64,000 nucleotides of DNA from Hyphomicrobiaceae bacterium UBA7697. GTDB taxonomy: Bacteria; Pseudomonadota; Alphaproteobacteria; Rhizobiales; Methyloligellaceae. The DNA is taken from NCBI GenBank assembly GCA_002482645.1, contig DLGJ01000015.1, positions 25,015 through 89,014 of the forward strand, in the 5' to 3' direction. The notes under the pieces are model-generated. The model saw nothing but the letters and a program-made list of their open reading frames with translations, did no database searches and was not told the DNA's origin. Shown here one piece after another: positions 6,421 to 63,686 of this stretch. A program made the translations under genes and the position numbers. The stretch's first letter is position 1; the number at the start of each line of letters is the position of its first letter.

Positions 6421-6844
6421 GCAAACACCTCAGCAATCCAGGCAGCAGCTCCTGCAACGGCTCGTCGGCCGGCGGCATGGCAAAATCGATCAAAGCCGCC
6501 GGTTCGACCCAGGCAAGAATTTGCCCTTCTCGCGGGCTGACTCGTCCCTGCCAGCACCAACATCCGAATACGGGCATACAGAGATGAAAGTCGGGATAAG
6601 AATAACTTGAAAATGTTAGCGGTTTCAGATCGCCGGGGGCGATCGAGACGCCGAGCTCTTCGTCGATTTCCCGGACCAGACACAGCTCCGGCGTTTCTCC
6701 GTCTTCCAGCTTGCCTCCGGGAAACTCCCAGAGCCCGGCGAGCGGTTTCCCTTCCGGGCGTTGCGAAATGAGAACGCGCCCCTGTTCGTCGATCAAGGCG
6801 CAGGCGGCGACCAGGACGAGCGGCGTCTCCTCGCGGCCCGTCAC
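6398..6844 (-). CDS. mutT: NUDIX hydrolase, 8-oxo-dGTP diphosphatase
   Basis: GTG start overlapping the argJ stop; [27 protein letters not shown] Nudix box. Confidence 0.9.
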
Positions 6845-41113: not shown

Positions 41114-41989
41114 ATGGGCTTACGTGACTACGACCCCAGACATAAAAACGACCCTGATCAGGACCAGGATCAGAAGCAAGATCAGGATCAGAAGCAAGAT
41201 CAGGACCAGAAGCAAGATCAGCTTCAGGGCCAGGCACAAGGCCAAGCTCAGGGCCAGGCTCAGCTAGCGGTCCAGGCTCTCTACCAGGAAAGCGACAACA
41301 AGAACGACAACGATAACGACAACAAGAACGAGAATGAGAACAAGAACGAGGTAGAGAACAAGCTCGACAACGAGGTCGAGAACAAACTCGACAACGCGGT
41401 TGAGAACAAGGTCGATAACGAGGTCGACAACAAGGTCAGCAACGAAATCAAGAACGAAGTCGAGAACAAGGTCGACGTGGATGTCGACATTGACATCGAC
41501 CTCGATCTCGACAGCCTGCCGACCGACGACGACCTGATCGATATCGAGAACTTCAATGCGCAGGACAACGAAGGCATCGTCCAAGCTCTCGCCAACGACG
41601 TATGGCAAGATGTCGCCGGCCCGGGCAACGACAACGCCTTCAATATCCAGCAAGTCAACTCGCTCGTCGACAACGACACGCTGGATCGCGCTGAAGTCAA
41701 GTATGACGCCGACGAAGTCGACGGCAAGATGGACGACAAGTTCGACGATGGAAACATCGGCGCAGGTTCGTTCATTCAGCAAGCCTTTGCCGATGGCGGC
41801 GAAGCCAAGATGGACGACGCCATGGCCGAGACCGAGATCGGCAACATCAGCGGTACCGGCAACGCGACCGCCGATGCGATCGTTAATCAGGAAGCGTTCA
41901 CCCAGAACATCGTTCAGGGTGCCAACATCCAGTTCAACTCAAATGAGATCTCGGTTGTTGGTGACGACGCGACTGATGCGATCCTTTAA
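41114..41989 (+). CDS. Acidic Q/N/D-rich repetitive protein, candidate T1SS substrate (major subunit)
   Basis: AAGGAGA RBS; QDQDQK repeats, QGQA repeats, NKxxNExE octads, VDVDVDIDIDLDLD; no signal peptide; no RTX nonamers. Confidence 0.85.
   Translation: MGLRDYDPRHKNDPDQDQDQKQDQDQKQDQDQKQDQLQGQAQGQAQGQAQLAVQALYQESDNKNDNDNDNKNENENKNEVENKLDNEVENKLDNAVENKVDNEVDNKVSNEIKNEVENKVDVDVDIDIDLDLDSLPTDDDLIDIENFNAQDNEGIVQALANDVWQDVAGPGNDNAFNIQQVNSLVDNDTLDRAEVKYDADEVDGKMDDKFDDGNIGAGSFIQQAFADGGEAKMDDAMAETEIGNISGTGNATADAIVNQEAFTQNIVQGANIQFNSNEISVVGDDATDAIL
41153..41270. repeat. 18-bp and 12-bp tandem repeats encoding QDQDQK and QGQA
   Basis: gatcagaagcaagatcag units, then cagggccaggca-like units. Confidence 0.85.
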
Positions 41990-42000
41990 CCCAGCCAAAA

Positions 42001-42027
42001 AGCCCGCGCGGACCCTCCGCGCGGGCT
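42001..42027 (+). terminator. Strong hairpin after the repeat-protein gene (terminator or mRNA stabiliser)
   Basis: agcccgcgcgg-accct-ccgcgcgggct followed by gctctttct. Confidence 0.75.
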
Positions 42028-42117
42028 GCTCTTTCTCAAATAAGAACGAAATTAGCAGGGAGACTTGGATAGAGGCGCCAAGAGCTGGACCAAGAGAAGT
42101 TTGGCGTGGAGGCATCG

Positions 42118-55361: not shown

Positions 55362-56687
55362 CTACGCCGGAACGCGACTGGATCGAGGCGAAAGCAACCC
55401 AAACAGTAGAAAACTGCTGATGACTGTGGCTGGGGCTGAAAACAGCTTGGTCTCTGGGATCATCAACAAGACTATCCCGATAATAACCGCAGAGATCCAC
55501 GCAATCATTCCCGGAGCGTAGTACGCCGGATATTGATCGTCGGGCTTGGCACCCTCGGTTCCGTCGTAGTCTTCGAGAAGAATATAGGCCAGCGTTACAC
55601 CAACCCACGCCACGACGAAGATTCCTTGATATGCCAGCGCGATGAGCAGGAACTGGAAGATATCCGCAAGCATAAGAAGGTAGACGACGATGCCCACGAT
55701 GATGGCCCACAGCCATTTCGGCCAATGGAGCTTCAGGGTCAGCCGGAAGAACGACTGAGTGTTCACGGTCGAGAGATAGAAGTTCGTGGTATTGATGCGC
55801 GTTTGGCTAATCCACACGAAGAGCATTCCGACCCAGCCCGTCATGAGGATCAGCGCCTTCACGACCGACACCTCGCTCAGCTCCCCTTCGACGGGGATCG
55901 TGTGAACCAGGAAAACGCCAGCCAAGCCGTTTACGAGGAAGGTGAAGACGTAGAACGGCAGGCCAAAGTTGAATATCGCGTGGTAGTTCTCGTCGCTTTT
56001 TCTCCCGAACTTCGCGAAATCGAACGTACACATCATCATCCACCAAACACCCATGAATGCGATGAACACGTTGATCCAGCCGTAGGGAGGCGCGCCGCCT
56101 TCCGGCTCGGACGTAAGCCAAGCGTCATTGTAGCCATACTGTGAAATGGCAAATATAACGATCCCGGCTAGTCCAAGGACATAGAGAGGAAGAAGATAAC
56201 CGTTGAAGCGATCGAGCCAATTCTGAACGCTGCCCAAGATCAACGGAACGCTATACAGGCACACGACGAACGCCGCGACGGCAAAGCTCACCGATGGCCA
56301 GTAAAACGTCGCCGCAGCGGCAACAACGGAACCCTCGAAGACCGCGTAATAGATGCTGCAGATAGCGTAAACAAAGGTCGCAATCGCAGATCCTGCTCGG
56401 CCGAATAACAATCGTGAAAAGAGCGAAACCGATAGGCCCGACTTAATTGCATATCTAACGATCGGTCCATTGATCAACGAGTATACAATAGCGCTGAGGA
56501 TAAGACCGATGATCGTATTGGCAGTTCCGTATGCTTGCGAAAGAACTGCCGAAATAATCATCCAAAACATGGCACTGCAGACCGCCCAGAAGGCCATCGT
56601 CAGGGCCAGGCGTGACATTCGTCCTTCAGGACTTACAGGCTTTTCCGAAAAGTCTAATTCTCCAGTAACGTCAATATTGCTGGACAT
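55362..56687 (-). CDS. Purine-cytosine permease (NCS1-like) transporter
   Basis: About 12 TM helices; GLSVSLFSRLLFG, YYAVFEG, FDFAKFG, QTRINTTNFY. Confidence 0.85.
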   Translation of the reverse strand: MSSNIDVTGELDFSEKPVSPEGRMSRLALTMAFWAVCSAMFWMIISAVLSQAYGTANTIIGLILSAIVYSLINGPIVRYAIKSGLSVSLFSRLLFGRAGSAIATFVYAICSIYYAVFEGSVVAAAATFYWPSVSFAVAAFVVCLYSVPLILGSVQNWLDRFNGYLLPLYVLGLAGIVIFAISQYGYNDAWLTSEPEGGAPPYGWINVFIAFMGVWWMMMCTFDFAKFGRKSDENYHAIFNFGLPFYVFTFLVNGLAGVFLVHTIPVEGELSEVSVVKALILMTGWVGMLFVWISQTRINTTNFYLSTVNTQSFFRLTLKLHWPKWLWAIIVGIVVYLLMLADIFQFLLIALAYQGIFVVAWVGVTLAYILLEDYDGTEGAKPDDQYPAYYAPGMIAWISAVIIGIVLLMIPETKLFSAPATVISSFLLFGLLSPRSSRVPA

Positions 56688-58850: not shown

Positions 58851-60905
58851 CTACGAACGCTGCGGCACCTGCATTTTGATGATCAGATATTGGTCCACCT
58901 CGGCGGTAATCCCCGGTGGCACAACGATCGTCGAGTCGAGCTGCTCGATAACGGCCGGACCCTGGACCTGGGCTCCTGCGTGCAGGCTGGCCCGATCGTA
59001 GATCGGCGTTTCGATTCGCTGCTCTTCTTCGTCAAACCGCACCGGCCGGGTACCGATCGGAGCCGGAGGCTCTTTCGGACCGAGCGGGTGCTTTGCAAGC
59101 TCCGCCTTTCGGTTCAGCCCAGTGGCACGAACTTGGATGCGGCAGATTTCGACGGGGGCGTCCGGACGCGAGTAGTTGTGCTCGCGGCCATGCTCCTGAT
59201 GGAACTTTCGAACCGCCTCCTTGAGATCGGAGATGTCGGATTCGACGGGAATCGACATCGAGCGCCACTGACCCAAGTAACGCATGTCGATAAACCGCTC
59301 GAACATCATACGGTCCGGCGCGATATCTTCATGCGCCAGCCGCTCCCGGCCCTCTTCTTCCATGGCGCGGAATTTGGCGTTCAGGTCGCCGAGATCGGCG
59401 CCATCGACCTTTGCGACGTACATCTGCGTCAGGTCGTGCGTGATATCCACCAGGAGACACCCGAGGGCCGACGTCACACCCGGGTTCGGCGGAACCAGAA
59501 CGACCGGAATGTGCAGATCCCTGGCCAGAGCCACGCCGTGCAGAGCACCCGCGCCGCCGAAGGCAACGAGAGCGAAGTCGCGCGGATCGTATCCCTTACG
59601 CAGCGACACCAAACGCACCGCGTCGGCCATGTTTGCGTTGGCGACCTTGAGAATGGCCAACGCGGCATCCTCGTTGGTCAAACCGAACGGCTGACCGATG
59701 ACGCGCTCGATGGCCTTCTCGGCGAGGTCGACATTCAGCTCGACCCGGCCGCCGGCAAGCTTGCGCCCCAGACGTCCGAGATAGACGTTCGCGTCACAGT
59801 TCGTGGGTTCCGTGCCGCCCCGGTCGTAGCACACAGGACCCGGCTCGGAGCCTGCGGACTGCGGCCCGTTGCGAAGCGCGCCAGCCGCGTCACGCCATGC
59901 CAGCGAACCGCCGCCGGCACCGATGGTGAGAACCTCGATGCTCGGGAAGCGAATAGGATAGCCATACTCCACGTGCCAATCGTTGGTGATATGGAGCTCG
60001 CCATCCGAACACAGACTGATGTCCGTGCTGGTGCCGCCCATATCCAGGCTGATGGAGTTCTTGTAGCCGGCGAGTTCCGCGATGAAGCGGCTCGCAATGG
60101 CGCCTGCGGCAATTCCCGATGCGGCAAGACGGGCGGCAAATTGCGTCGCCCCTTTTGCGGTCATCACGCCGCCGCCGGAGTGGAGCAGAAGCACCTCTCC
60201 TTTGTAGCCACCGGTCTTCATCCGGCCTTCAAGTTCCGCGCCGTAATCGCCAGCGACAGGCGACAGAACCGTATTGGCGACGGTCGTATTGAAACGCTCG
60301 TGCTCGAAGATTTCCGGCATAATCTCGCTGGAAAGCGAAACTTTAATATTCGGGATTTCTTCGAGAAGAATATCCCTCATTTTTTCTTCATTCTTTGAAT
60401 TTACGAATGAATTAACGAAGCAAATAGCGACGTTGGTGATATTCCGCTTCTTGATGATGCGGGCCAGCTCGCGAGCTTCTTTCTCGTCGACCTCTTCAAT
60501 GACCTTGCCGGCATAATCGACACGCTCGCTGACGGACAAACGATCGCGCCGTGCGAGATACGGCGGCGCCATTTCCTTATAGGTGTCCCAAAGATCGTCG
60601 CGCGTTCCGCGGCGAATCTCGATCACGTCGCGAAAGCCTTTGGTGGTGACCATCAGCGCCGGCGGGAATCGGCGCGTGATCAACGCATTCGTGGCGAGCG
60701 TCGTGCCATGCGAGAAAAGGGCGATGTCGTTCAGGGCGACATCGGCCGCATCGATACCGTTAAGCACCCCGTCAATAGGGTCCACCGTTGTCGGTGTCTT
60801 GGCGACGTGGATCTCGCCCGAGTCCTCGTTGAGAACGCAAACGTCAGTAAAGGTGCCACCAACGTCACAGGCAACGCGAACCGACTGCCCAGCTGAGGTA
60901 TTCAT
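58851..60905 (-). CDS. Hydantoinase A/oxoprolinase family subunit (ATP-binding)
   Basis: DVGGTFTD, HGTTLATNAL, DMGGTSTD, IGAGGGS, GPQSAGSEPGP, AFGGAGALH; GGAGGA RBS. Confidence 0.93.
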   Translation of the reverse strand: MNTSAGQSVRVACDVGGTFTDVCVLNEDSGEIHVAKTPTTVDPIDGVLNGIDAADVALNDIALFSHGTTLATNALITRRFPPALMVTTKGFRDVIEIRRGTRDDLWDTYKEMAPPYLARRDRLSVSERVDYAGKVIEEVDEKEARELARIIKKRNITNVAICFVNSFVNSKNEEKMRDILLEEIPNIKVSLSSEIMPEIFEHERFNTTVANTVLSPVAGDYGAELEGRMKTGGYKGEVLLLHSGGGVMTAKGATQFAARLAASGIAAGAIASRFIAELAGYKNSISLDMGGTSTDISLCSDGELHITNDWHVEYGYPIRFPSIEVLTIGAGGGSLAWRDAAGALRNGPQSAGSEPGPVCYDRGGTEPTNCDANVYLGRLGRKLAGGRVELNVDLAEKAIERVIGQPFGLTNEDAALAILKVANANMADAVRLVSLRKGYDPRDFALVAFGGAGALHGVALARDLHIPVVLVPPNPGVTSALGCLLVDITHDLTQMYVAKVDGADLGDLNAKFRAMEEEGRERLAHEDIAPDRMMFERFIDMRYLGQWRSMSIPVESDISDLKEAVRKFHQEHGREHNYSRPDAPVEICRIQVRATGLNRKAELAKHPLGPKEPPAPIGTRPVRFDEEEQRIETPIYDRASLHAGAQVQGPAVIEQLDSTIVVPPGITAEVDQYLIIKMQVPQRS

Positions 60906-61056
60906 CCGATTCCTCCGAATTTTGACATGGTCCAGGCGCGGCCGTCGACGCACGTCGACAGCATCCTGGCGAGACGGAGCTCGCGCGGGCAGACACACCT
61001 GGGGCTACAGCAGACGAGATATCTGCTTGCGACCGTTTGAATTATTGGGATTGTCC

Positions 61057-61079
61057 AAAAGGCGAACGGCTTCGTCCGC
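61057..61079 (-). terminator. Leader attenuator (intrinsic terminator) upstream of the hydantoinase operon
   Basis: Minus strand GCGGACG-AAGC-CGUUCGC-CUUUU. Confidence 0.7.
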
Positions 61080-61102
61080 AGCGGATTAGCGTACCCGCAC
61101 CA

Positions 61103-61159
61103 CTACCTTACGCATTGGCGGGTAGCTGATCACAAAAACATCGCATCTTTGCGACGATG
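61103..61159 (-). promoter_or_regulatory. Candidate ANTAR (AmiR) dual-hairpin RNA element
   Basis: P1 CAUCG-UCGC-AAAGAU-GCGA-UG with A1/G4 hexaloop; P2 CUACC...AAUGCG...GGUAG. Confidence 0.6.
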
Positions 61160-61163
61160 GCCG

Positions 61164-61192
61164 ACATTATTAGGATAGAGAGGATGAGTCAA
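61164..61192 (-). promoter_or_regulatory. Putative sigma70 promoter of the hydantoinase operon
   Basis: Minus strand TTGACT-N17-TAATGT, placing the start site at the base of P1. Confidence 0.65.
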
Positions 61193-61520
61193 GCATGACT
61201 TCAGCATTCGCGTGAAATCGTTGCGAAAGTGCTTGCGTATACCATAATGGCACAAGCAATTATCGAGATAGCGATTGCCCAAATACAACCCGCGGAAAGC
61301 AATCAAACCCTTGAAAACATCGCCATTACCCAGATTGGGCCATTTTCGACGTTGCACCGCACAACGCCCCCGGTGCGCCCCTTGAGCCCCGCACCGGCCA
61401 CGCGCAATTCATGGCAAGACTCGAGCCGACGCGAAGGGAACACAGGTCCGTCCGAGACCGGCCGCCTGCCGGTCTCTGGACTTGCGGCAAGCGACCCAAG
61501 CTAACGGGCGACAACCGGTC

Positions 61521-62177
61521 TCAGACAGATTTGTCCTTCGGCAGAAGATGAAGCATCTCGTTCGCGTTGACGACCGCGGACGCGATCGCCTCGATCGTCG
61601 TCCTCTTGTTCATCGCTTGCTCGCGGAGCGCGTTGTACGCGGCATCCTCGGGTATGCTCCTGATGGCCATCAAGATGGACTTTGCCTTGTCGATATCCCG
61701 CTGCGCCCGCAGCTTTTCCGCAAGGCGCGCCGCCCTCAGCCTTAATCGCGCCTCGCGGCGATGATTATTGACACTTAACAGGATCGTGGCCAGAACGCCG
61801 AAGGTCTGGAGCGGCAACCCGATGACTGCTTGAACCCGCAAGCGGAGCATCTTCTCCACCACAATCGGATTCTCATAGTCGACCACGGCAATCAAGACTG
61901 CCGAAGGATCGTCCGCATCCCAATTCAACTCGATATTGTCCTCAACGAGAGGACCTGCCGAGATTAAAACGACGTCCACATTGTCTTGAATGTTTACGGG
62001 CAGCGGCCAGCAGCGTCTTACGAGACAACCAATTCTGTTCAAGTGCTGCGAAAGCTCTTCGTTCTCTCGATTTTCGGGCTGCAACAACAACACCCGGAGC
62101 CGGCACAAGTCCTTTACGACGATGGGATCGAATCGATCATCATAGGATATGTCGAGTAAGCAATCCATCTCAACCAA
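61521..62177 (-). CDS. AmiR-like ANTAR antiterminator (pseudo-receiver plus ANTAR)
   Basis: RIGCLVRRCWP, VVDYENP, DIDKAKSILM..AYNALREQAM; resembles P. aeruginosa AmiR. Confidence 0.88.
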   Translation of the reverse strand: MVEMDCLLDISYDDRFDPIVVKDLCRLRVLLLQPENRENEELSQHLNRIGCLVRRCWPLPVNIQDNVDVVLISAGPLVEDNIELNWDADDPSAVLIAVVDYENPIVVEKMLRLRVQAVIGLPLQTFGVLATILLSVNNHRREARLRLRAARLAEKLRAQRDIDKAKSILMAIRSIPEDAAYNALREQAMNKRTTIEAIASAVVNANEMLHLLPKDKSV

Positions 62178-62239: not shown

Positions 62240-63385
62240 CTATAGCGGCAGCGCATTCATCTCAGAGTGCAGATGTCTATGAAACGAACTCACAAGATAC
62301 GGATCCGGTACAACGCGATCCATGATTGCCACGATTTCGAACTGTCCATCGTCGCGGGCACGGCCAATCTTCGGCCAAAGATTGGCGTGGCCGTTCGACG
62401 GATCAATTCGGACTTTCCCCTGCGGGGCTAGGAACTCTCTTCCCAATATCGCCTTACGAAGAACGTCCGGTTCGTCGGTTTCCACTTCGCGAAGCGCATC
62501 GGCAACGAGACCCACCTGAAAATAGGCCGCCTCCCAGCACATGTTGGTTATGACGGGCTGGCCTTTCCATTTCTCGTATTTTTGGAGACACGTCCTGTTC
62601 TCGGCGCTCAAATGCGTCTGAAAATACGTTGCCGACGTGATGTGACCCGCCCCGACGTCGTGCCCCATCACCGCAATGTCGGCCTCGCTTGTGGTCAGGC
62701 TCGCGATGGGCATGGTCCTCGCCGACAGGCCCGCGTCCGCGTAGGCTTGATAGAACTTGATGATGCTATCTCCTACGAAATTACAGAAGATAACGTCCGG
62801 CTGTTTAGCCTTGATATTCTTAACTAATTCGACGAACTCGTAGTTCTTCGCACTGAGTTTCAGATATTGCCGCCCGACGATTTCACCGCCGTCTCTCAAA
62901 ACCATTTCGGTCATGATGCGATCGGATTCGCGCGGCCAAATGTAGTCGGACCCCACCATATAAAAGCGGTTTCTCGACGACTCTAAGAGATATTCCCCCA
63001 GCGGGTAGCTAATTTGATTGGCGACCGCCCCGCAATAAATCGCGTTGCGCGAATATTCGAAGCCTTCGTATTGGGCCGGATAGCACAGCAGTCCATTTTG
63101 CCGCTCCACCGCGCGAAGAGCGGCCTTTCGCGAACTGGACATGTAGCATCCGAATATGATCTTCACGCCAAATTCGATGAGGAGTTTGTTGGCGAGGTCG
63201 TAATACGCATCCGGGTGGCTGCCCGGGTCCAGGAGAAACGGGACGATCTCCCGCCCATTAATGCCTCCGGCGGCGTTGACCTGCTCGATGGCAAACAGCG
63301 TCGCATCCGACATGCCACGCTCTGTCGCGGATGTAACGCCGGTTTGGGAGAATAGGATTCCGACCTTGATAGGCGCACCCGCCAT
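62240..63385 (-). CDS. AmiC-like cytoplasmic amide sensor (PBP1 fold)
   Basis: VGILFSQTG, FGCYMSSSRKA, CYPAQYEGFEYS, GSDYIWPRES; no signal peptide; adjacent to the AmiR-like gene. Confidence 0.88.
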   Translation of the reverse strand: MAGAPIKVGILFSQTGVTSATERGMSDATLFAIEQVNAAGGINGREIVPFLLDPGSHPDAYYDLANKLLIEFGVKIIFGCYMSSSRKAALRAVERQNGLLCYPAQYEGFEYSRNAIYCGAVANQISYPLGEYLLESSRNRFYMVGSDYIWPRESDRIMTEMVLRDGGEIVGRQYLKLSAKNYEFVELVKNIKAKQPDVIFCNFVGDSIIKFYQAYADAGLSARTMPIASLTTSEADIAVMGHDVGAGHITSATYFQTHLSAENRTCLQKYEKWKGQPVITNMCWEAAYFQVGLVADALREVETDEPDVLRKAILGREFLAPQGKVRIDPSNGHANLWPKIGRARDDGQFEIVAIMDRVVPDPYLVSSFHRHLHSEMNALPL

Positions 63386-63686
63386 TTTGTCACTCGCCAA
63401 TGGTTTATTTCGTTCGGCGGTTGGGGTGATCCTCCCCATCGGAACGAAGCCATTCACGGGACGAGACCCAGCGACGCAACGCTCCGTAGCCACAGTTCAA
63501 TCGCAATAGTGGCGAGCGGCTTGTAGCTCGTCAACGAACTTCGAGACATTTTATCCCGGCACGATTCCCGGACATCGCTCGGGCGCCGCATGGCGCGGGT
63601 TCGAGCCGATCCTTTCCAACGCATTGATTTTGACGCCCTGCTGCCGTCACATGCCGCTTCGGAGCGAGCAACACATTGAAGGCGTG

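What the first reader, a model, noticed from the sequence alone, without database searches (positions are those of the whole stretch)
61057..61192. Readable ANTAR leader: promoter, A1/G4 hexaloop hairpins, attenuator
Seen on the minus strand, in order: TTGACT-N17-TAATGT; P1 UCGC[AAAGAU]GCGA extended by CAUCG/CGAUG; a 13-nt linker; P2 CUACC..AAUGCG..GGUAG, which competes with the alternative stem UACCCGC/GCGGGUA; then terminator GCGGACG-AAGC-CGUUCGC-CUUUU about 150 nt before the first ATG. Known: ANTAR proteins bind tandem hairpins with A1/G4 hexaloops to block termination. Caveat: P2 is imperfect and does not overlap the terminator, so the switch geometry is non-canonical or my fold is incomplete.
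Basis: partly seen in the sequence, partly recalled or inferred. Interest (0 to 1): 0.68.

Follow-up and report, generated by a model that had tools for sequence, protein, structure and literature searches.

The report
ANTAR leader lacking its second hairpin
This is the RNA leader of a lactam-hydrolase operon that descends from a textbook AmiR/ANTAR antitermination switch. It has kept only the first protein-binding hairpin and lost the second hairpin and the strong terminator, yet it is far more conserved than neutral sequence, so it probably works in a non-textbook way.

Summary
The promoter and hairpin P1 (CGUCGC[AAAGAU]GCGAUG, 61139-61156, minus strand) are real. They align with the promoter and P1 of more than 25 orthologous amiC-amiR/hyuAB leaders. 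Those leaders carry a canonical ANTAR attenuator: P1, an 8-14 nt linker, P2 (GAGC[AAAGAA]GCUC) overlapping a strong terminator, then U5-9.

His P2 has no hexaloop-closing stem, and covariance models of the canonical family skip it. It lies inside a 40-nt hairpin H found only in this lineage. His terminator hairpin T is an ancestral hairpin that in canonical relatives lies downstream of the true terminator. Its U-run is absent in L047 and L005 and reduced to UUU in L003.

Three leaders share the window's anatomy (window, L003, L047). The block from P1 to T differs at 3 of 96 positions between window and L047. Over the same comparison, synonymous sites differ at 50% and the promoter spacer at 55%. 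amiR and amiC are under strong purifying selection (dN/dS 0.03-0.10).

This is therefore a functional, derived ANTAR leader with a single clear hexaloop. P1 is followed directly by a conserved U5-6 run, the only hairpin-plus-U element conserved in it. How it works is inferred, not shown.

The parts
61187..61192 (-). -35 box TTGACT of the leader promoter
   Evidence: TTGAC is nearly invariant in 16 of 18 aligned orthologous leaders. It is identical in window, L003 and L047 although the spacer is 55% diverged.
61164..61171 (-). Candidate -10 region (TAATGT with a 17-nt spacer, or AATAAT with a 15-nt spacer). The transcript start is inferred near 61157-61161.
   Evidence: Sequence only. It is not conserved in sequence in L047, which has TAGTAT. 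The transcription start is not mapped.
61139..61156 (-). P1: 6-bp hairpin CGUCGC[AAAGAU]GCGAUG with an A1/G4 hexaloop (61145-61150). Presumed AmiR binding site.
   Evidence: Compensatory changes in P1 across 17 canonical leaders. No changes between window and L003. In L047 only loop position 6 changes, U to C.
61129..61138 (-). U-rich run UUUUUGUGAU directly 3' of P1. Together with P1 it is the only hairpin-plus-U element conserved in this lineage. It can also pair with the P1 5' arm and loop (alt-P1).
   Evidence: Flagged as terminator-like by the scan. U5 in window and L003, U6 in L047. R2 aligns it to the family's terminator U-tract. P1 and alt-P1 are about 0.49 and 0.51 in the ensemble. 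d-score about 0 to +5.
61088..61127 (-). H: long hairpin AGCUACCCGC...GCGGGUA(C)GCU with a 19-nt loop. It is found only in the window-type leaders, and its arms resemble the arms of the canonical terminator.
   Evidence: -17 to -18 kcal/mol. Pairing probability 0.8. One loop change in L003 and one unpaired change (A·U to A·G) in L047. Not a repeated element in the genome.
61062..61079 (-). T (T'): hairpin GCGGACG[AAGC]CGUUCGC, which can also be read as GCGGAC[GAAGCC]GUUCGC.
   Evidence: Pairing probability 0.99. G·U becomes A·U in L047. Homologous hairpins with the apical motif C-GAAG-NN-G occur in L049, L005 and L050 downstream of their true terminators.
61057..61061 (-). CUUUU after T. Not conserved, so not a reliable terminator tail.
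   Evidence: CAUUU in L003 and CUUCU in L047. UUUAGG in L005 and AACC in L049. d-score -34 to -51.
60906..61056 (-). Remaining structured 5' UTR up to the Shine-Dalgarno sequence GGAGGA and the ATG
   Evidence: About 5% diverged from L003 and 20% from L047. Three stems retain pairing despite changes in or beside their loops (AGCAGA/UCUGCU, GCGAG/CUCGC, GUCGAC/GUCGAC); substitutions against L003 fall in loops or turn C·G into U·G.
58851..60905 (-). hyuA-like gene (hydantoinase/oxoprolinase A; nearest named family is caprolactamase alpha). First gene controlled by the leader.
   Evidence: Pfam. NCBIfam CapA 501 bits, below the 1000-bit cut-off.
61521..62177 (-). amiR-like gene (AmiR_N plus ANTAR domains)
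   Evidence: dN/dS 0.028 against L003 and about 0.10 against L047. The ANTAR domain is conserved with canonical orthologues.
62240..63493 (-). amiC-like ligand sensor (Peripla_BP_5). The ATG at 63385 is the more likely start.
   Evidence: dN/dS 0.05-0.08.

Best explanation
Positions 60906-61192 (minus strand) are the promoter and 5' leader of a two-subunit ATP-dependent lactamase/hydantoinase operon (hyuAB-like). The operon is controlled by the AmiC/AmiR pair encoded just upstream.

The leader descends from a conserved canonical ANTAR attenuator: promoter, P1 hexaloop, short linker, P2 hexaloop overlapping a strong terminator, U-tract, then hairpin T'. In the lineage of the window, L003 and L047 it has been remodelled. 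P1 at the 5' end of the transcript is kept. The P2 hexaloop and the strong terminator are gone. P1 is now followed at once by a U5-6 run. A 40-nt hairpin H separates that run from the ancestral hairpin T'.

- Shown: the anatomy, the homology, the loss of P2 and the strong terminator, and very strong purifying selection on the 96-nt block P1-U-H-T' and on amiC/amiR.
- Inferred: AmiR, released from AmiC when a small amide or lactam is bound, binds the P1 hexaloop.
- Inferred, and the weakest step: what AmiR modulates is the fate of the polymerase at the weak P1-plus-U-run terminator about 30 nt into the transcript. It does not do this by stabilising a P2 that competes with a downstream terminator.

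For: **Context**
- AmiC-like and AmiR-like genes lie upstream, hyuA and hyuB downstream.

**Family**
- More than 25 orthologous leaders carry P1, P2, a terminator and a U-tract.
- P1 shows compensatory changes, and 94.7% of cells form standard pairs against 29-49% for slid partners.

**The window against the family**
- R1 (P1 plus P2) matches the window through P1 only.
- R2 (P1 plus terminator) aligns P1 directly to the U-tract with 47 model positions deleted (19.2 bits, E = 4e-4).
- No other AmiR-type attenuator is found in the genome.
- A canonical NasT leader elsewhere in the same genome shows that the organism does use standard ANTAR attenuators with long terminators.

**Selection**
- Window against L003: dS 0.24-0.34; upstream intergenic region 21% diverged; leader 9 of 253 positions (binomial 7e-16); P1 plus U-run 0 of 30.
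- Window against L047: amiR synonymous sites differ at 50%; promoter spacer 55%; P1 to T 3 of 96.
- amiR and amiC dN/dS 0.03-0.10. The ANTAR domain is unchanged relative to canonical orthologues.

**The two U-runs**
- The U-run after P1 is conserved or lengthened (U5, U5, U6). The U-run after T is not.
- d-scores: canonical terminators +20 to +36; P1 plus U -0.2 to +4.7; T -34 to -51.

**Literature**
- A single hexaloop is the minimal ANTAR binding unit (PMC8934654).
Against: - The start site, any termination site and AmiR binding are all untested.
- Only three window-type leaders are known and they are very similar, so covariation cannot test H, T or alt-P1.
- P1 plus the U-run is at best a borderline terminator (-7 to -8.5 kcal/mol, d about 0).
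- A protein that binds a terminator hairpin would be expected to stabilise it, not defeat it. No ANTAR precedent for defeating it is known to me.
- Constraint folding shows no coupling between the state of P1 and T or the ribosome-binding site.
- The extreme sequence conservation of loops and linkers in the block suggests a more complex function than a simple hairpin terminator.
Confidence: 0.6

Rival explanations
1. This would be a dual-hexaloop ANTAR switch in which P1 and P2 (CUACC..AAUGCG..GGUAG) are bound by AmiR, and the terminator GCGGACG-AAGC-CGUUCGC-CUUUU is the regulated attenuator.
For: All the quoted strings are present. P1 is genuine. T is a stable hairpin (probability 0.99) followed by four U in the window.
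Against: - P2 has no stem closing a hexaloop, and R1 skips it.
- P2 does not overlap T.
- T fails the terminator scan and has d-scores of -34 to -51.
- The U-run after T is reduced to UUU in L003 and lost in L047 although the hairpin is kept.
- Homologues of T in L049, L005 and L050 lie after the true terminator and lack a U-run.
Confidence: 0.05
2. A vestigial attenuator. After P2 and the terminator were lost, the operon became constitutive, and P1 and the rest of the leader are decaying relics.
For: The canonical P2/terminator module is absent. No strong terminator remains. No other AmiR-type site is found in the genome.
Against: - The leader is 6-15 times less diverged than neutral sequence in two independent comparisons.
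- amiR and amiC have dN/dS of 0.03-0.10 since the remodelled leader arose.
- The ANTAR domain is intact.
Confidence: 0.07
3. A split two-hairpin platform. P1 and T' (read as GCGGAC[GAAGCC]GUUCGC, with G at loop position 4) are both AmiR sites. Folding of H plus GUGAU/AUCCGC brings them together as a three-way junction. AmiR binding then controls something other than intrinsic termination, such as mRNA stability, Rho access or translation.
For: - The apical motif C-GAAG-NN-G of T' is conserved in window, L047, L049, L005 and L050.
- It equals the P1 loop of L020 and L021 (GAAGGC).
- With the H extension formed, P1 and T' flank one helix, with 5 nt on one side and 1 nt on the other.
- Conservation of the whole block, loops included, fits a protein-RNA platform.
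Against: - P1 and P2 of the family share an invariant GC[6 nt]GC frame, which T' lacks (AC...GU).
- T' more stably forms a 7-bp stem with a tetraloop.
- T' also exists in canonical leaders that already have P1 and P2.
- Folding shows no coupling to the ribosome-binding site.
Confidence: 0.2

Closest known systems
Pseudomonas aeruginosa amiE leader with AmiC/AmiR (aliphatic amidase operon)
   Same: The sensor-regulator pair has the same domain types (Peripla_BP_5 protein plus AmiR_N-ANTAR protein). A hexaloop hairpin with A1/G4 lies near the 5' end of a catabolic operon leader. The presumed inducer is a small amide or lactam.
   Different: The regulated genes are a two-subunit ATP-dependent lactamase/hydantoinase, not an amidase. 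amiC and amiR lie upstream rather than downstream. The window's leader lacks the second hexaloop and the overlapping terminator described for amiE (PMC3369931).
Enterococcus faecalis EutV with eutP-type dual-hexaloop attenuators
   Same: The P1 design is the same: a short stem and a hexaloop with A at position 1 and G at position 4. The canonical relatives of this leader (for example L008, L049) match the full dual-hairpin and terminator design.
   Different: In eut the two hairpins must be 5-12 nt apart, and P2 overlaps the terminator. Changing the linker to 3, 14 or +20 nt abolishes control (PMC3369931, PMC8934654). In the window the next hexaloop-capable hairpin is 59 nt away and nothing overlaps a terminator.
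Canonical amiCR-hyuAB leaders of Aminobacter, Mesorhizobium, Pseudaminobacter, Hyphomicrobium and metagenomes (found here; I know of no publication describing them)
   Same: They are orthologous: same genes, same -35 box, same P1, and the same downstream hairpin T' in the Hyphomicrobium-like subgroup.
   Different: They have P2 (GAGC[AAAGAA]GCUC and variants) overlapping a -17 to -23 kcal/mol terminator with U5-9. The window has none of this.
Single-hexaloop ANTAR sites proposed for EutX/Rli55 (Walshe et al. 2022, PMC8934654)
   Same: A lone hexaloop serves as a sufficient ANTAR binding unit.
   Different: Those sites are proposed to sequester the protein on a small RNA. Here the lone hexaloop heads the mRNA leader of the regulated operon.
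NasT/NasR nitrate-assimilation leaders
   Same: The same protein family. The same genome carries a canonical NasT-type leader at C13:603526-603857.
   Different: That leader has clear tandem hexaloops and a long terminator with U5. The hyuA leader does not.

Membership tests
ANTAR target RNA (dual-hexaloop antiterminator, Ramesh et al. 2012) | A cognate ANTAR-domain protein is encoded in the genome, usually nearby | tested here: met
   An AmiR_N plus ANTAR protein lies 365 nt upstream of P1 on the same strand.
ANTAR target RNA (dual-hexaloop antiterminator, Ramesh et al. 2012) | First hairpin with a stem of at least 3 bp and a hexaloop with A at position 1 and G at position 4 | tested here: met
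   CGUCGC[AAAGAU]GCGAUG at 61139-61156. It is homologous to P1 of the canonical family.
ANTAR target RNA (dual-hexaloop antiterminator, Ramesh et al. 2012) | Second hairpin with an A1/G4 hexaloop a short linker away (5-12 nt in eut; 8-14 nt in this family) | tested here: not met
An exhaustive list of hexaloop hairpins in the leader shows none with A1/G4 and at least 4 bp; the only A1/G4 candidate downstream is a 3-bp stem made mostly of wobble pairs. R1 deletes the P2 positions.
ANTAR target RNA (dual-hexaloop antiterminator, Ramesh et al. 2012) | The 3' arm of the second hairpin overlaps the 5' arm of an intrinsic terminator | tested here: not met
   No hexaloop hairpin overlaps T. H has no U-tract.
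ANTAR target RNA (dual-hexaloop antiterminator, Ramesh et al. 2012) | An intrinsic terminator in the leader upstream of the regulated gene | tested here: inconclusive
   P1 plus U5-6 passes a consensus scan but is weak (d about 0 to +5). T fails. No transcript data are available.
ANTAR target RNA (dual-hexaloop antiterminator, Ramesh et al. 2012) | Binding by the ANTAR protein and loop-dependent antitermination | not testable with these tools
   Requires a gel-shift assay, in vitro transcription or reporter assays.
amiCR-hyuAB leader family (defined here by models R1 and R2) | Orthologous position with a conserved -35 box and P1 carrying the GC[6 nt]GC frame | tested here: met
amiCR-hyuAB leader family (defined here by models R1 and R2) | A full-length match to the P1-P2-terminator model at family-level scores (38-83 bits) | tested here: not met
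   The window and L003 score 19.2 bits through P1 and the U-tract only. Members score 38-83 bits.
Rfam families (any) | A match at or near the gathering score | tested here: not met
   Rfam has no match on the leader. The only hits are chance-level and lie upstream, at the 3' end of amiR.

The most novel reading that the evidence does not exclude
A one-hairpin ANTAR switch. After P2 and the old terminator were lost, the AmiR-binding hexaloop hairpin P1 itself became the stem of a weak intrinsic terminator (P1 plus U5-6, about 30 nt into the transcript). AmiR bound to the apical 4 bp and hexaloop would keep the last base pairs from closing in the RNA exit channel, or would otherwise disable the hairpin. 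Binding to the terminator hairpin itself would then cause read-through. The ultra-conserved H-T' block would serve as a second docking or folding platform.
Probability: 0.2. Interest if true: 0.8.

Novelty: new variant of a known kind. Interest (0 to 1): 0.5.

Why it matters
ANTAR regulators are widespread, but their accepted mechanism rests on one RNA design: two hexaloop hairpins, the second competing with a terminator. Structural work in 2022 argued that a single hexaloop is the real binding unit, and predicted single-hexaloop targets that had not been found in leaders.

This lineage offers a natural case with a built-in control. Close relatives (L049, 80% AmiR identity) keep the canonical design, while three leaders (window, L003, L047) have lost P2 and the strong terminator. 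Those three still keep P1, AmiR, AmiC and a 96-nt block under very strong selection.

Comparing the two designs in vitro would show directly whether ANTAR proteins can regulate through one hairpin, and how. The work also defines a previously undescribed ANTAR regulon, amide or lactam sensing coupled to ATP-dependent lactamases, in soil and sludge Alphaproteobacteria.

Tried and rejected
- **Rfam.** The scan of 60500-62000 found nothing on the leader.
- **DNA search in relatives.** A search with the intergenic region in 60 related genomes gave no orthologue. A search with AmiR in 400 genomes of the order gave only four distant hits at 45% identity. The locus is therefore sporadic.
- **Naive dual-hexaloop scan.** A scan of the whole genome gave 22 chance-like hits. 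It missed the real NasT leader because of my 50-nt tail limit. I used covariance models instead.
- **H as a repeat or mobile insertion.** Rejected: there are no other copies in the genome.
- **Leader peptide.** A 12-codon ORF (MRCFCDQLPANA) starts in P1. Rejected: its AUG is destroyed in L047 (AAAGAC), an inner AUG is destroyed in L003, and there is no Shine-Dalgarno sequence.
- **GCGGGU[ACGCUA]AUCCGC as a P2.** Rejected: position 4 of the loop is C, the hairpin lies 40 nt from P1, its closing pair is broken in L047, and it does not overlap T.
- **Coupling of P1 to downstream structure.** Constraint folding found no coupling between the P1 / alt-P1 state and T or the ribosome-binding site.
- **Canonical attenuator upstream of amiC.** Such an attenuator is present in relatives. 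None is seen by eye in the window, and R1 run over the whole window gave no significant hit there.
- **R2 hit at window 41964-42036.** This is an ordinary terminator-like hairpin between two secretion-cargo genes, not an ANTAR site.
- **Origin of the U-run and of H.** Two routes fit the data and I could not separate them. One is a clean deletion fusing P1 to the old terminator's U-tract (the joined L005 flanks reproduce GCGAUGUUUUUGUG). The other is in-place remodelling in which H is the old terminator stem that lost its U-tract: the arms resemble AGCUCCCG.../CUGCGGGAGCU, and the P1-to-T' distance is 59 nt against 67 nt in L049.
- **Caveat on the d-score.** The terminator d-score formula (d'Aubenton-Carafa 1990) was written from memory.

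Full report
**1. What is at the coordinates**

On the minus strand the window reads TTGACT (61187-61192), 17 nt, TAATGT (61164-69). Then comes CGUCGC[AAAGAU]GCGAUG (61139-56), followed by UUUUUGUGAUC. Next is a long hairpin, AGCUACCCGC-19 nt-GCGGGUA(C)GCU (61088-61127, called H here). After AAUCCGCU comes GCGGACG[AAGC]CGUUCGC (61062-79, called T here) and then CUUUU (61057-61). The first ATG of the downstream gene is at 60903-05.

- 'CAUCG/CGAUG' overlaps the GCGA arm, so it is not an extension. P1 is a 6-bp stem.
- 'AAUGCG' in his P2 is not closed by any stem. P2 is a 5-bp stem with a 13-nt loop.

A consensus scan does not accept T as a terminator, because it has only four U. It does flag P1 followed by UUUUUGUG.

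**2. Context**

Upstream on the same strand lie an AmiC-like binding protein (Peripla_BP_5) and an AmiR-like protein (AmiR_N plus ANTAR domains). Downstream lie hydantoinase/oxoprolinase A and B subunits. Their nearest named family is caprolactamase CapA/CapB, though they score below its cut-offs. After them come a 441-aa protein with no Pfam match and a MetA-type outer-membrane channel. Rfam has no match on the leader.

**3. The family this leader belongs to**

AmiR-anchored searches of genomes and metagenomes, followed by protein-cluster look-ups, recovered about 40 related loci. In Aminobacter, Mesorhizobium, Pseudaminobacter, Hyphomicrobium and many metagenome contigs the hyuA leader is a textbook ANTAR attenuator:
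- a TTGACA promoter;
- P1 of the form YCGC[ANNGNN]GCGR;
- an A/U-rich linker of 8-14 nt;
- P2 of the form GAGC[AAAGAA]GCUC, whose 3' arm starts a 10-12 bp terminator;
- a run of U5-9.

P1 shows compensatory changes (U-A, C-G and U-G pairs). In the P1-plus-P2 structure 94.7% of cells form standard pairs, against 29-49% when partners are slid. The terminator behaves likewise. P1 and P2 share an invariant GC[6 nt]GC frame. I built two covariance models from these leaders. R1 models P1 plus P2 and R2 models P1 plus the terminator. Members of the family score 38-83 bits with R2.

**4. The window is the exception**

- R1 matches the window only through P1 (13.2 bits, P2 positions skipped).
- R2 aligns P1 directly to the U-run, with the 47 positions for linker, P2 and terminator deleted (19.2 bits, E = 4e-4 in 2.5 kb).
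- An exhaustive list of hexaloop hairpins in the leader shows no second A1/G4 hexaloop with a real stem.
- Neither model finds another AmiR-type attenuator in the 3.15-Mb genome.

The same genome holds one other ANTAR protein, a NasT homologue. Its leader has clear tandem hexaloops (GCGUCC[AACGAC]GGGCGC and GGC[AAAGCC]GCC) and a long terminator with U5. The organism therefore does use the standard design elsewhere.

**5.

Hairpin T has homologues in the closest canonical leaders:
- L049: CGGAC[GAAGGU]GUCCG
- L005: ACGGCCG[AAGU]CGUCCGU
- L050: GGCGGCC-GAAGAC-GUUCGCC

In each case the hairpin lies 16-25 nt after the true terminator's U-tract and has no U-run of its own.

Within the window's own lineage the hairpin is kept, and G·U becomes A·U in L047. 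The tail, however, reads CUUUU, CAUUU and CUUCU. Scores from the d'Aubenton-Carafa formula, which I wrote from memory, are:

| Element | d-score |
|---|---|
| Five canonical terminators | +20 to +36 |
| P1 plus its U-run | -0.2 (window), +4.7 (L047) |
| T | -34 to -51 |

. T is a conserved hairpin, not the attenuator.

**6. The remodelled leader is functional, not decaying**

Three leaders share the window's anatomy: the window, L003 (AmiR 98% identical) and L047 (87%).

| Comparison | Region | Divergence |
|---|---|---|
| Window vs L003 | synonymous sites (dS) | 0.24-0.34 |
| Window vs L003 | intergenic region upstream of the -35 box | 21% plus indels |
| Window vs L003 | leader, P1 to ATG | 9 of 253 positions (3.6%; binomial 7e-16) |
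| Window vs L003 | P1 plus U-run | 0 of 30 |
| Window vs L047 | amiR synonymous sites | 50% (dS 0.82) |
| Window vs L047 | promoter spacer | 55% |
| Window vs L047 | P1 to end of T | 3 of 96, plus one extra U |
| Window vs L047 | rest of the leader | 20% |

. The differences between window and L003 fall in loops or change C·G to U·G.

amiR and amiC have dN/dS of 0.03-0.10, and the ANTAR domain matches that of canonical orthologues. L049, at 80% AmiR identity, is canonical. Loss of P2 is therefore a single derived event in the ancestor of the three, and regulator and leader have stayed under selection since.

**7. How the remodelling happened**

Two routes fit the data and I could not separate them.
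- A clean deletion of linker, P2 and terminator stem. Joining the flanks of L005 (GCGAUG | 44 nt | UUUUUGUG) reproduces the window's GCGAUGUUUUUGUG, and this is how R2 aligns it.
- In-place change in which H is the old terminator stem. Its arms, AGCUaCCCGC and UGCGGGuAcGCU, resemble AGCUCCCG.. and CUGCGGGAGCU of L018. The distance from P1 to T' is 59 nt against 67 nt in L049. On this route the old U-tract became AAUCC and a new U-run arose in the former linker.

Both routes lead to the same present anatomy.

**8. Mechanism**

The shown facts are these: the anatomy, the homology, the loss of P2 and the terminator, and the selection. The rest is inference.

AmiR most likely still binds P1. A single hexaloop is the minimal ANTAR binding unit (PMC8934654), and P1 is the only family-type site in the genome.

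The only hairpin-plus-U element conserved in all three leaders is P1 followed by U5-6. My best guess is therefore that the controlled event is termination about 30 nt into the transcript. Several points count against this guess:
- The hairpin is weak (-7 to -8.5 kcal/mol).
- A loop-binding protein should stabilise a hairpin rather than defeat it.
- I know of no precedent for this in ANTAR systems.

Folding adds two observations. P1 and an alternative pairing of its 5' arm and loop with the U-run are about equally stable (0.49 and 0.51). Forcing either state does not change T or the accessibility of the ribosome-binding site. The near-invariance of loops and linkers across the 96-nt block suggests several mutually exclusive pairings or a protein platform. 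The H region does contain three alternative helices.

A rival reading treats T' as a second AmiR site, because its loop GAAGCC has G at position 4 and equals the P1 loop of L020 and L021. In that reading H folds to bring T' next to P1. Against this, T' lacks the GC[6]GC frame shared by P1 and P2.

**9. Comparison with known systems and novelty**

The locus works like the P. aeruginosa AmiC/AmiR system and the EutV and NasR leaders in its protein parts and in P1. It fails two defining features of the dual-hexaloop target: the second hexaloop, and overlap with a terminator. Work on EutV shows that moving the hairpins apart abolishes control (PMC3369931, PMC8934654).

A 2024 preprint on another AmiC/ANTAR operon in Mesorhizobium also reported that no dual-hexaloop motif could be identified (10.1101/2024.02.22.581678). 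Non-canonical ANTAR targets may therefore be more common than assumed. I found no paper linking AmiR or ANTAR to hydantoinase or caprolactamase operons.

I rate the canonical family as a new member of a known kind, and the window's leader as a new variant of that kind.

**10. Limits**

- Only three window-type leaders are known.
- Model E-values are rough.
- The promoter is supported by conservation only.

Noticed in passing
L008:4682-4755, L012:4810-4883, L049:2244-2317, L005:5028-5101 and about 20 further loci: A well-conserved canonical ANTAR attenuator (P1, P2/terminator, U-tract) precedes hyuAB-like lactamase operons next to amiC-amiR in Aminobacter, Mesorhizobium, Pseudaminobacter, Hyphomicrobium and many metagenome contigs. 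I found no publication describing it.
   Followed up: yes
L012:2332-2406(-), L010:2319-2391(-), L019:2291-2365(-) and 6490-6560(-); weaker hits on the + strand at about 2520-2700 just upstream of amiC in most loci: Many relatives carry extra copies of the attenuator. One is on a divergent operon upstream of amiC (50-62 bits). A weaker one lies directly in front of amiC (17-22 bits), which suggests autoregulation and a multi-operon AmiR regulon. No such copy was seen upstream of amiC in the window.
   Followed up: partly
L012-L017, L026, L034 (P2 loop): In one Aminobacter group the P2 hexaloop is AAAAAA, with no G at position 4. The P2/terminator overlap is nevertheless fully conserved. This is at odds with the strict A1/G4 rule.
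   Followed up: no
L049:2244-2262, L050:2250-2270, L020 and L021 (P1 loop): P1 loops GACGAU, GACGAA and GAAGGC have G rather than A at position 1 in otherwise canonical attenuators.
   Followed up: no
L008:4780-4830, and the same place in L006, L009, L011, L018: A third hexaloop hairpin, UAGC[AACGAA]GCUA (A1/G4), lies about 100 nt downstream of the terminator. It competes with a long hairpin (UUGCU..AGCGU / ACGCU..AGCAA) that has no U-tract. It may be a second ANTAR-controlled element.
   Followed up: no
Own genome C13:603526-603857 (minus strand), outside the window: A NasS/NasT pair is followed by a canonical ANTAR leader with hexaloops AAAGUC, AACGAC and AAAGCC and a long terminator with U5. 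It sits in front of nitrate/nitrite assimilation genes.
   Followed up: partly
L050:2200-2500 and L051:1990-2500: Canonical attenuators precede hyuAB with no amiC/amiR called nearby; a LysR-type gene and a DUF2478 gene lie upstream instead. The regulator must be encoded elsewhere, or lies in the 1.2-1.6 kb where no gene was called.
   Followed up: no
window 55362-56687 (-): The 441-aa ORF after hyuB has no Pfam or NCBIfam match. An ORF of the same length follows hyuB in L050 and L051.
   Followed up: no
window 41964-42054: A GC-rich palindromic hairpin (AAAAAGCCCGCGCGGA...UCCGCGCGGGCU) lies between the two secretion-cargo genes. It scores with the terminator part of model R2 on both strands and looks like an ordinary bidirectional terminator.
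   Followed up: partly
window 61455-61521 (-): A GC-rich hairpin (GAGACCGG..CCGGUCUC) lies right after the amiR stop codon, with no U-run. The surrounding 325 nt of intergenic sequence are 21% diverged from L003, so they appear unconstrained.
   Followed up: no
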